Positions 34,184 through 34,976 of a stretch of 64,000 nucleotides of DNA are shown here, piece by piece. Numbering within the stretch: position 1 is the first letter of the stretch; each line of letters begins with the position of its first letter. The notes below the pieces were generated by a model that had not been told where the DNA came from, made no database searches, and worked only from the letters and a program-made list of their open reading frames with translations. The DNA comes from the human T2T-CHM13v2.0 reference genome, Homo sapiens. Location: the NCBI RefSeq assembly GCF_009914755.1, contig NC_060940.1, one strand, 5' to 3'. A program made the translations under genes and the position numbers.

Positions 34184-34976
34184 TTTTTTTTAATACAAAG
34201 AAAATTTTATTTGTACATTAAAGACTCTAAGAAATGATGACATAAGTTAACAGAGTTGATGTCAAGACACAAATAGGTTTGACGTTATAGATGATAAATC
34301 ACTTTGTTTTAATGAACCTTCCCTTGATTAGGTTAGAGAGCATCCCTGGTACGCTCCCAGTTGAATCTTAAGCATGATGCGTCCAGGTGATATAATCGTA
34401 ATTCCTTTCTGTTAGTTCTTGTGATCTCTCTTTTTTTTTCTTTTTCTTCTTTTTCTCTGGACTAGGAATTGTTGTGCTGGTACATGGTTCTTCCTCAGAA
34501 AGTGGTTCTTCCTTAATGTGTTTCTTTTTACCTTTTTTTCTTCTTCTTCTTCACAGGTGTTTCTTCTTCTGCCACTTTTTCTTCTTATTCCTCTTCTTCA
34601 GCTTTAACTTTAATCTTGGCTTTTTTTTTTTTGCATTCTTTTCAGTAATTTCATCCTCTTTATCTACCTGTTCTATTTTGCATTTTTTAGAACAGGTTGG
34701 AGGTGTGGAGTCACCAGAAGAATCATAAGTCTTCATTTCAATAAGCGTACATTGTTTTTTCATTTTAGTGGCTTTGGGGTAGTTTATGAAGACTAATAGT
34801 TTCCAAAAAGTAAAGGTATTAATATTTTTCAAGTAGGTTAGTCACATTCAAGAGAAGTGGTGAGCTAAATGAATTCTTTTGTGTTCATATTTTTCTGTTT
34901 TTACTAATGCCTTTCCTGTTCCACTTATTTTTCTTATCCCTCTATCTTCCAAAGTTCTCAACCTACCCTTTAATTT
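34184..34976 (-). pseudogene. NOP58: 5'-truncated processed pseudogene of NOP58 (C-terminal CDS, 3'UTR and polyA)
   Basis: Minus strand reads KLKGRLRTLEDRGIRKISGTGKALVKTEKYEHK (34976-34878), then EMKTYDSSGDSTPPTCSKKCKIEQVDKEDEITEK...KKKHIKEEPLSEEEPCTST..SPEK, matching the NOP58 C-terminus as I recall it; frameshift in the A-run at about 34621-34632; AATAAA at 34211-34206; A8 tail at 34191-34184. Confidence 0.93.

What the first reader, a model, noticed from the sequence alone, without database searches (positions are those of the whole stretch)
34741..34875. NOP58 retrocopy carries an extra 135-bp stop-containing block at an apparent exon junction: possible fossil of a poison-exon (NMD) isoform
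Seen: on the minus strand the NOP58-matching sequence runs ...gaa cac aaa ag| (to 34876), then 135 bp of non-coding sequence (aattcatttagctcacc...gtacgcttat), then resumes |t gaa atg aag act tat (from 34740). No NOP58 bases are lost or duplicated. The block has no TSD, no polyA and no repeat similarity I recognise. It lacks GT...AG ends, so it is not a retained intron. It reads R-I-H-L-A-H-H-F-S-stop in frame. The upstream side ends in AAG, the usual exon 3' end. Established: processed pseudogenes copy whichever isoform was reverse-transcribed, and snoRNA host genes and snoRNP protein genes such as NOP58 commonly make NMD-targeted isoforms. Inference: the block is a cassette exon from the NOP58 intron at this position. 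L1 would then have captured a PTC-containing transcript in the germline, which dates the poison exon to before the insertion. I recall an exon junction here but could not verify it.
Basis: partly seen in the sequence, partly recalled or inferred. Interest (0 to 1): 0.8.

Follow-up and report, generated by a model that had tools for sequence, protein, structure and literature searches.

The report
NOP58 retrocopy preserves a poison exon
A dead, reverse-transcribed copy of the NOP58 gene on chromosome 16 has kept an extra 135-base exon that still sits, with intact splice signals, inside the working gene on chromosome 2 and cuts the protein short, so it is probably a fossil of an old self-limiting splice form of this ribosome-biogenesis gene.

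Summary
The 135-bp block (window 34741-34875, minus strand) interrupts the NOP58 processed pseudogene exactly at an exon junction. No NOP58 base is lost or duplicated there. In the whole T2T genome the block has two matches: itself and chr2:202781025-202781159 (93%, E 1.6e-50). That chr2 place lies in the NOP58 intron between the exon ending CACAAAAG and the exon encoding NOP58 residues 424-467. In the parent the segment is flanked by AG upstream and GTAAGT downstream. Its divergence from the retrocopy (9 of 135) does not differ from that of the flanking exons (32 of 635; Fisher p = 0.41), so it entered with the retrocopy. The in-frame TGA is shared by both copies. It lies 107 nt before the next exon junction and 378 nt before the last, which meets the 50-nt NMD rule. 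So a spliced, polyadenylated cassette-exon transcript with a premature stop existed tens of millions of years ago. Not testable here: present-day inclusion, NMD sensitivity, annotation status and primate or mammalian conservation. Seven full-text searches found no paper on a NOP58 poison exon. It is a new member of known kinds, of modest interest.

The parts
34184..34976 (-). NOP58 processed pseudogene (LOC100421258), 5'-truncated, including its A8 tail
   Evidence: Six collinear pieces match successive chr2 NOP58 exons with all introns removed. The copy ends at the parent's poly(A) site. The 5' flank is unique sequence.
34938..34976 (-). 3' part of the NOP58 exon that ends ...GACAGAGGG (retrocopy 5' end)
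   Evidence: 34 of 38 compared bases identical to chr2:202778496-202778533. There is no similarity upstream of 34976.
34876..34937 (-). 62-nt NOP58 exon encoding residues 403-422, ending CACAAAAG
   Evidence: 60 of 62 identical to chr2:202778866-202778927. The parent donor is AAG|GTGAGT.
34741..34875 (-). 135-nt cassette exon absent from the reference mRNA
   Evidence: 126 of 135 identical to chr2:202781025-202781159. That chr2 segment is intronic and flanked by ...aatcAG| and |GTAAGT.
34848..34850 (-). In-frame TGA, the premature stop, 9 codons into the cassette
   Evidence: The same TGA is present in the chr2 parent copy.
34602..34740 (-). NOP58 exon encoding residues 424-467 in the parent, with a 5-nt A-run expansion in the retrocopy
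   Evidence: 127 of 134 identical. The parent translation matches 7mq8_SB residues 424-467 at 44 of 44.
34464..34601 (-). Penultimate NOP58 exon (K/E-rich tail)
   Evidence: 128 of 134 ungapped positions identical.
34192..34463 (-). Last NOP58 exon with 3' UTR, ending at the parent's poly(A) site
   Evidence: 254 of 267 ungapped positions identical.
34184..34191 (-). Remnant poly(A) tail (A8), not templated in the parent gene
   Evidence: the parent continues TTAAGAC... after the same last bases.

Best explanation
The block is a cassette exon of NOP58. In an ancestral primate germ line, a NOP58 pre-mRNA was spliced so that a 135-nt segment of the third-from-last intron was included between the exon encoding residues 403-422 and the exon encoding residues 424-467. 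The parent gene has 2097 nt of intron upstream of that segment and 96 nt downstream. The fully spliced, polyadenylated mRNA was reverse-transcribed from its 3' end, most likely by LINE-1 with 5' truncation, and inserted on chr16. The cassette puts a TGA nine codons after residue 422. The resulting open frame is 422 + 9 codons and lacks the 107-residue K/E-rich tail. Three exon junctions lie downstream of the stop, so the isoform has the architecture of an NMD substrate, that is, a poison exon. Shown here: origin of the block, splice-site flanks, co-insertion with the retrocopy, and a stop shared by both copies. Inferred: NMD sensitivity, L1 as the agent, and the age (roughly 20-55 million years). 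Undetermined: whether inclusion is regulated or is a low-level by-product.
For:: the block has 2 of 2 genome matches, itself and chr2:202781025-202781159 (93%, E 1.6e-50); that place lies between the two NOP58 exons that flank the block in the retrocopy, and both junctions are base-exact; the parent flanks are AG| and |GTAAGT. The block's ends were fixed by the retrocopy alone, so the chance of AG plus GTAAGT at those ends is about 1.5e-5. The donor matches CAG|GTAAGT at 7 of 9 positions, as good as or better than the four neighbouring constitutive donors (5-7 of 9); substitutions are 9 of 135 in the cassette against 32 of 635 in the exons, Fisher p = 0.41, so the block is as old as the rest; in the parent the frame reads EHK-RIHLAHHIS-stop; the same TGA is in the retrocopy. 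The stop lies 107 nt before the next junction and 378 nt before the last. The rule that a stop followed by an exon junction more than 50 nt downstream counts as premature is stated in the abstract of PMC13187750, seen in the listing; the downstream exon is NOP58 residues 424-467; the copy ends at the parent's poly(A) site with an untemplated A8.
Against: No RNA evidence could be consulted, so present-day use of the exon and its NMD sensitivity are untested. The acceptor is weak: 10 of 18 pyrimidines at -20..-3, the lowest of the five acceptors compared. The cassette shows no sign of extra constraint, at 6.7% divergence against 5.0% in the exons. One retrocopy-CG against parent-TG difference near its 3' end suggests change in the parent lineage. 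No convincing target-site duplication flanks the retrocopy. NMD substrates are scarce at steady state, so capture of one is a priori unlikely unless inclusion was high in the germ line. No other NOP58 retrocopy reaches this junction to act as a second witness. No local RNA structure stands out (z = -0.33), and there is no snoRNA in the intron. Seven full-text searches found no report.
Confidence: 0.85

Rival explanations
1. The cassette was genuinely spliced in, but only as a one-off product of cryptic splice sites that happened to be retrotransposed. On this reading it is splicing noise, with no regulated or maintained poison-exon function in NOP58.
For: The acceptor is weak (10 of 18 pyrimidines). 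Cassette divergence is not lower than that of the exons. There is no conserved-looking structure and no literature on the exon. Survival of the AG and GT dinucleotides over this time span is expected by chance alone (my estimate from about 5% divergence per site).
Against: The donor has a perfect GTAAGT core. The exon has an ordinary length of 135 nt. The transcript was otherwise correctly spliced at all four constitutive junctions and polyadenylated at the normal site. Being captured at all suggests non-trivial abundance in the germ line. The sister gene NOP56 is known to use splicing-coupled NMD (passage in PMC10324135).
Confidence: 0.35
2. The isoform was a coding variant rather than an NMD substrate. 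It would give a C-terminally truncated NOP58 of 431 residues that lacks the K/E-rich tail.
For: The open frame through residue 422 is kept and nine new residues are added. The missing part is only the low-complexity tail after residue 423 (alignment).
Against: Three exon junctions lie 107-378 nt downstream of the stop, which is the canonical NMD trigger. The nine added residues differ between the copies (I in the parent, F in the retrocopy), and no support for such a protein was found.
Confidence: 0.08
3. A DNA-level or reverse-transcriptase artefact put the block there. Candidates are a later insertion or gene conversion of chr2 intron DNA into the pseudogene, or template switching by the reverse transcriptase onto a NOP58 pre-mRNA and back.
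For: Chimeric retrocopies made by template switching are known (recalled, not checked here). No target-site duplication was found to confirm a single clean L1 event.
Against: Both ends of the block coincide to the base with exon ends in the retrocopy, and with AG| and |GTAAGT in the parent. The chance of that is about 1.5e-5. Divergence equals that of the rest of the retrocopy. No intron sequence on either side of the cassette was carried along.
Confidence: 0.03
4. The block is a transposon or other repeat that inserted into the pseudogene.
For: None was found.
Against: The whole-genome search found only two copies, self and the NOP58 intron. The block has no flanking direct repeat and no A-tail. 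Rfam's Alu-like SRP matches in the parent intron lie 750-1600 nt away from the cassette and do not cover it.
Confidence: 0.01

Closest known systems
[quoted passage not shown]
   Same: A retrocopy records the exon composition of the particular mRNA isoform that was reverse-transcribed, so it can reveal and date alternative exons.
   Different: I saw this paper only as a reference-list entry in PMC5470649. It is not held, so its content is recalled. I do not know whether NOP58 or isoforms with premature stops were among its cases. A search combining processed pseudogene or retrocopy with poison exon and NMD terms listed nothing on point by title or abstract start among the 20 of 62 papers shown.
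NOP56 autoregulation through SNORD86 and an NMD-sensitive splice variant
   Same: NOP56 is a paralogous core box C/D snoRNP protein gene whose output is limited by alternative splicing that yields an NMD substrate (passage read in PMC10324135).
   Different: In NOP56 an intronic snoRNA senses snoRNP protein levels and shifts the splicing. In the NOP58 intron holding the cassette no snoRNA was detected. Rfam gave 0 matches at gathering score over 9.8 kb and only Alu-like and miRNA-like sub-threshold matches at E <= 1. The event here is a cassette exon.
Poison cassette exons of RNA-processing genes and conserved cryptic poison exons in human introns (PMC11632617)
   Same: It is an intronic cassette of ordinary size with a premature stop far upstream of the last junction, in a gene of RNA metabolism.
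   Different: Conservation and NMD response, which define those sets, could not be tested. NOP58 does not occur in the main text of PMC11632617 (one search count) or in its one supplementary file held as text.

Membership tests
Processed pseudogene (LINE-1-mediated retrocopy) | Introns removed with base-exact exon junctions relative to a multi-exon parent at another locus | tested here: met
   six collinear pieces of chr2 NOP58 are joined precisely on chr16.
Processed pseudogene (LINE-1-mediated retrocopy) | Untemplated poly(A) tail at the parent's polyadenylation site | tested here: met
   an A8 run lies at 34191-34184 directly after the last parental base, where the parent continues TTAAGAC.
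Processed pseudogene (LINE-1-mediated retrocopy) | Target-site duplication flanking the insertion | tested here: inconclusive
   the best shared word between the flanks is an 8-mer that does not abut the ends. At about 5% divergence a short duplication may have decayed.
Cassette (alternative) exon | Segment bounded by a 3' splice site AG and a 5' splice site GT in the gene | tested here: met
   ...aatcAG|AATTC... and ...GCTTAT|GTAAGT.
Cassette (alternative) exon | Found in a mature spliced transcript, joined to the neighbouring exons | tested here: met
   Met indirectly: the retrocopy is a DNA record of such a transcript.
Cassette (alternative) exon | Junction reads or an annotated transcript in present-day human RNA | not testable with these tools
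   No transcript annotation of the chr2 locus and no RNA-seq data were available. The RefSeq pseudogene alignment skips the block (hub table), so the reference mRNA lacks it.
Poison exon / AS-NMD substrate | In-frame premature stop introduced by inclusion | tested here: met
   EHK-RIHLAHHIS-stop in the parent; the same TGA is in the retrocopy.
Poison exon / AS-NMD substrate | Stop more than 50-55 nt upstream of the last exon-exon junction | tested here: met
   From the coordinates: 107 nt to the next junction and 378 nt to the last.
Poison exon / AS-NMD substrate | Isoform stabilised when NMD is inhibited | not testable with these tools
   No expression data. No paper was found.
Poison exon / AS-NMD substrate | Evolutionary conservation of the exon and its splice sites | not testable with these tools
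   No other mammalian genome is held. The retrocopy gives only a minimum age for the exon.
Retained intron | Block begins with GT and ends with AG, and equals a whole intron | tested here: not met
   the block starts AATTC and ends GCTTAT. It is 135 nt of a 2328-nt exon-to-exon interval.
Recursive-splicing exon | A 5' splice site (AG|GT...) is rebuilt at the junction of the upstream exon with the cassette | tested here: not met
   the junction reads AAAAG|AATTCA.
snoRNA-coupled autoregulation (NOP56/SNORD86 type) | A box C/D snoRNA in the alternatively spliced intron | tested here: not met
   no snoRNA family matched at gathering score or at E <= 1. A bare GTGATGA...CTGA pair exists, but 6 matches to the C-box word against 2.6 expected is not significant (12 of 200 shuffles reached 6).

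The most novel reading that the evidence does not exclude
The cassette is a maintained, regulated poison exon through which NOP58 or box C/D snoRNP levels limit NOP58 output. It would be the NOP58 counterpart of the NOP56/SNORD86 loop, but built on a cassette exon without a recognisable snoRNA. It would be old enough (at least about 20-55 My) and included often enough in the germ line to have been fossilised by retrotransposition. The long T-tract with a second candidate acceptor 128 nt upstream, and the C-box/D-box-like pair about 110-210 nt upstream of the cassette, would then be parts of the switch.
Probability: 0.15. Interest if true: 0.6.

Novelty: new member of a known kind. Interest (0 to 1): 0.35.

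Why it matters
NOP58 is a core protein of all box C/D snoRNPs, and its dosage matters for ribosome biogenesis. A feedback loop through an NMD-sensitive splice form is documented for its paralogue NOP56, but I found none in print for NOP58. The retrocopy gives sequence-level proof that a fully processed NOP58 mRNA carrying this stop-containing exon existed tens of millions of years ago. The exon's splice sites and stop are still intact in the human gene. This names one exact exon (T2T chr2:202781025-202781159) whose inclusion, NMD response and dosage dependence can be checked directly in existing RNA-seq data. It also shows that 5'-truncated pseudogenes can date unproductive isoforms as well as coding ones. 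If GENCODE already annotates the exon, what remains new is mainly the minimum age.

Tried and rejected
- **Transposon insertion:** rejected, because the block has only two genome copies.
- **Retained intron and recursive-splicing exon:** rejected from the junction sequences.
- **Twin-priming or inverted NOP58 sequence at the 5' end:** the 304 nt upstream of the retrocopy match only themselves.
- **Second witness among other NOP58 retrocopies:** none found. In one search the copies on chr22, chr14, chr2 (130.5-132.1 Mb), chr12, chr18, chr21 and chr15 all start at or after query position 440, which is in the penultimate exon. The chr3:48.10 Mb fragment starts 25 nt inside the exon downstream of the cassette.
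- **snoRNA in the parent intron:** none.
- **Stable local RNA structure around the cassette:** none (z = -0.33; 36 of 100 shuffles fold as well).
- **Target-site duplication:** none convincing.
- **Polarising substitutions with older retrocopies:** this worked only for the last exon, giving 7 changes on the chr16 branch, 5 on the parent branch and 3 ambiguous. The penultimate-exon alignment was unreliable, with 20 apparent differences against 6 in the pairwise alignment, and I discarded it.
- **Literature:** nine searches were run.
  - Seven bore on NOP58 or on poison exons in retrocopies, and none found a report of this exon. sought the retrocopy-as-isoform-fossil literature.
  - Passages mentioning NOP58 that I read in PMC10324135, PMC12477815 and the snoFlake preprint concern other matters.
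  - One preprint that holds both 'NOP58' and 'poison exon' (10.64898/2026.08.28.746988) could not be read.

Full report
**What is there.** On the minus strand of the window (coordinates re-derived) lies a 5'-truncated NOP58 processed pseudogene, 34976 down to 34192, followed by an A8 run at 34191-34184.
- BLAST of this stretch against 9.8 kb of chr2 (L023 = chr2:202776001-202785800, fetched) resolves it into six collinear pieces.
- The pieces are 39 nt of one exon, a 62-nt exon, the 135-nt block, then three further exons. The last one ends at the parent's polyadenylation site.
- The parent continues TTAAGAC where the retrocopy has its A run.
- The exon after the block translates, in the parent, to 44 residues identical to residues 424-467 of human Nucleolar protein 58 (PDB 7mq8 chain SB, 529 residues). 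The parent is therefore NOP58 and the site is a real exon junction. Codon 423 is split across it.

**Where the block comes from.** A search of the whole T2T assembly with the 135 nt gave two matches: the block itself and chr2:202781025-202781159 on the plus strand (93% identity, E 1.6e-50).
- That place lies inside NOP58, 2097 nt downstream of the exon ending CACAAAAG and 96 nt upstream of the exon starting TGAAGTGAAG.
- The parental segment is preceded by ...aatcAG and followed by GTAAGT.
- The block's ends were defined by the retrocopy alone, without reference to the parent's flanks. Finding AG and GTAAGT exactly there has a chance probability of about 1.5e-5.
- The segment was therefore removed from its flanking intron sequence by the spliceosome. 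It is a cassette exon. It is not a retained intron, a repeat or a DNA-level insertion.

**Same age as the rest.**

| Segment | Identical to parent |
|---|---|
| Partial 5' exon | 34 of 38 |
| 62-nt exon | 60 of 62 |
| Cassette | 126 of 135 |
| Exon after cassette | 127 of 134 |
| Penultimate exon | 128 of 134 |
| Last exon | 254 of 267 |

- The exons pooled differ at 32 of 635 positions (5.0%) and the cassette at 9 of 135 (6.7%). Fisher p = 0.41.
- A later insertion of parental DNA would be less diverged, so the block entered with the retrocopy.
- Jukes-Cantor distance over all 770 positions is 0.055. With recalled neutral rates of 1.0-1.5e-9 per site per year this gives 37-55 My if all change is on the pseudogene branch, and 18-28 My if it is split evenly.
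- For the last exon, other NOP58 retrocopies used as outgroups assign 7 changes to the chr16 branch, 5 to the parent and 3 ambiguous. The truth therefore lies between these figures.
- I read this as tens of millions of years, and I predict the copy is shared by apes and probably by Old World monkeys. No other primate genome was available to test this.

**What the exon does to the message.**
- In the parent, inclusion reads EHK-RIHLAHHIS-TGA. The retrocopy has the same TGA at 34850-34848, so the stop was in the ancestral transcript.
- The cassette has stops in all three frames.
- The stop lies 107 nt before the cassette's downstream junction and 378 nt before the last junction (coordinates). 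This meets the rule that a stop followed by an exon junction more than 50 nt downstream is premature (abstract of PMC13187750, seen in the listing).
- The isoform thus has the architecture of an NMD substrate. If translated, it would give NOP58 residues 1-422 plus nine residues, without the K/E-rich tail.
- Splice signals are those of an alternative exon. The donor core is perfect (TAT|GTAAGT, 7 of 9 against the consensus, compared with 5-7 of 9 for the four neighbouring constitutive donors). The polypyrimidine tract is the weakest of the five acceptors compared (10 of 18, against 12-16 of 18).

**What could not be shown, and what speaks against a regulated role.**
- No transcript annotation or RNA-seq for the chr2 locus was available, so present-day inclusion and NMD sensitivity are inference.
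- The cassette is not less diverged than the exons.
- One retrocopy-CG against parent-TG difference suggests drift in the parent lineage.
- No stable structure surrounds the cassette (z = -0.33).
- No snoRNA lies in the last 9.8 kb of the gene (0 Rfam matches at gathering score). At E <= 1 only Alu-like SRP matches and sub-threshold miRNA matches appear, in the intron between L023 3386 and 4276.
- No target-site duplication was found, so L1 is the expected agent, not a demonstrated one.
- No other NOP58 retrocopy spans this junction. The copies listed begin at or after query position 440. The old chr3 fragment begins 25 nt inside the downstream exon.

**Comparison with what is known.**
- Processed pseudogenes as records of splice variants is an established idea. 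Shemesh et al. 2006 makes this case, but I saw it only in a reference list and it is not held, so its content is recalled.
- Splicing-coupled NMD is documented for the paralogue NOP56, where the intronic SNORD86 senses snoRNP protein levels (passage in PMC10324135).
- For NOP58, seven full-text searches found no report of a poison exon or an NMD isoform.
- NOP58 is absent from the one held supplement of the catalogue of conserved cryptic poison exons (PMC11632617).
The supplements of two unproductive-splicing papers were not seen for the same reason.
- The exon may well be annotated in GENCODE. I could not check.

**Verdict.** The find is a clean, well-supported example of known phenomena in a gene where it has not, as far as my searches reach, been described. 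It is not a new kind of element.

Noticed in passing
L023 4856-4897 (chr2:202780856-202780897): A run of about 30 pyrimidines, mostly T, is followed by ...cattgagcAG|TG. This looks like a stronger 3' splice site 128 nt upstream of the acceptor that the fossil transcript used. With the same donor it would give a 263-nt version of the cassette.
   Followed up: no
L023 4816-4822 and 4911-4914 (chr2 intron upstream of the cassette): GTGATGA and CTGA lie about 95 nt apart, with 3 complementary flanking bases. This is a box C/D-like arrangement, and the T-tract lies between the two boxes. Rfam finds no snoRNA here. The C-box word is not significantly enriched (6 found against 2.6 expected).
   Followed up: partly
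L023 3391-3633 (+) and 3999-4276 (-): Two Alu-like elements (sub-threshold Metazoa_SRP matches) lie in opposite orientation in the same intron, about 750-1600 nt upstream of the cassette. An inverted Alu pair could influence splicing of this intron.
   Followed up: no
L024 2130-2464, minus strand (chr3:48097630-48097964): An older, degraded NOP58 retrocopy fragment (74-87% identity) begins 25 nt inside the exon downstream of the cassette and has an internal disruption. It does not reach the junction.
   Followed up: partly
L004-L011 and L014-L022 (chr22:16.29 Mb, chr14:13.3 and 13.7 Mb, chr2:130.5-132.05 Mb, chr21:11.98 Mb, chr18:14.68 Mb, chr15:18.8 and 19.8 Mb; L014, chr18:63.95 Mb, is distal): Many near-identical copies (87-90% to the query) of the 3' end of a NOP58 retrocopy share the same start points. 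All but the chr18:63.95 Mb one lie in pericentromeric or acrocentric regions. This looks like one or two old retrocopies spread by segmental duplication.
   Followed up: no
window 34184-34976: By the hub's gene table the retrocopy lies antisense inside an intron of LINC02141. It is dead as a gene, with a 5-nt A-run expansion at about 34620-34630 and several in-frame stops downstream of the cassette.
   Followed up: no
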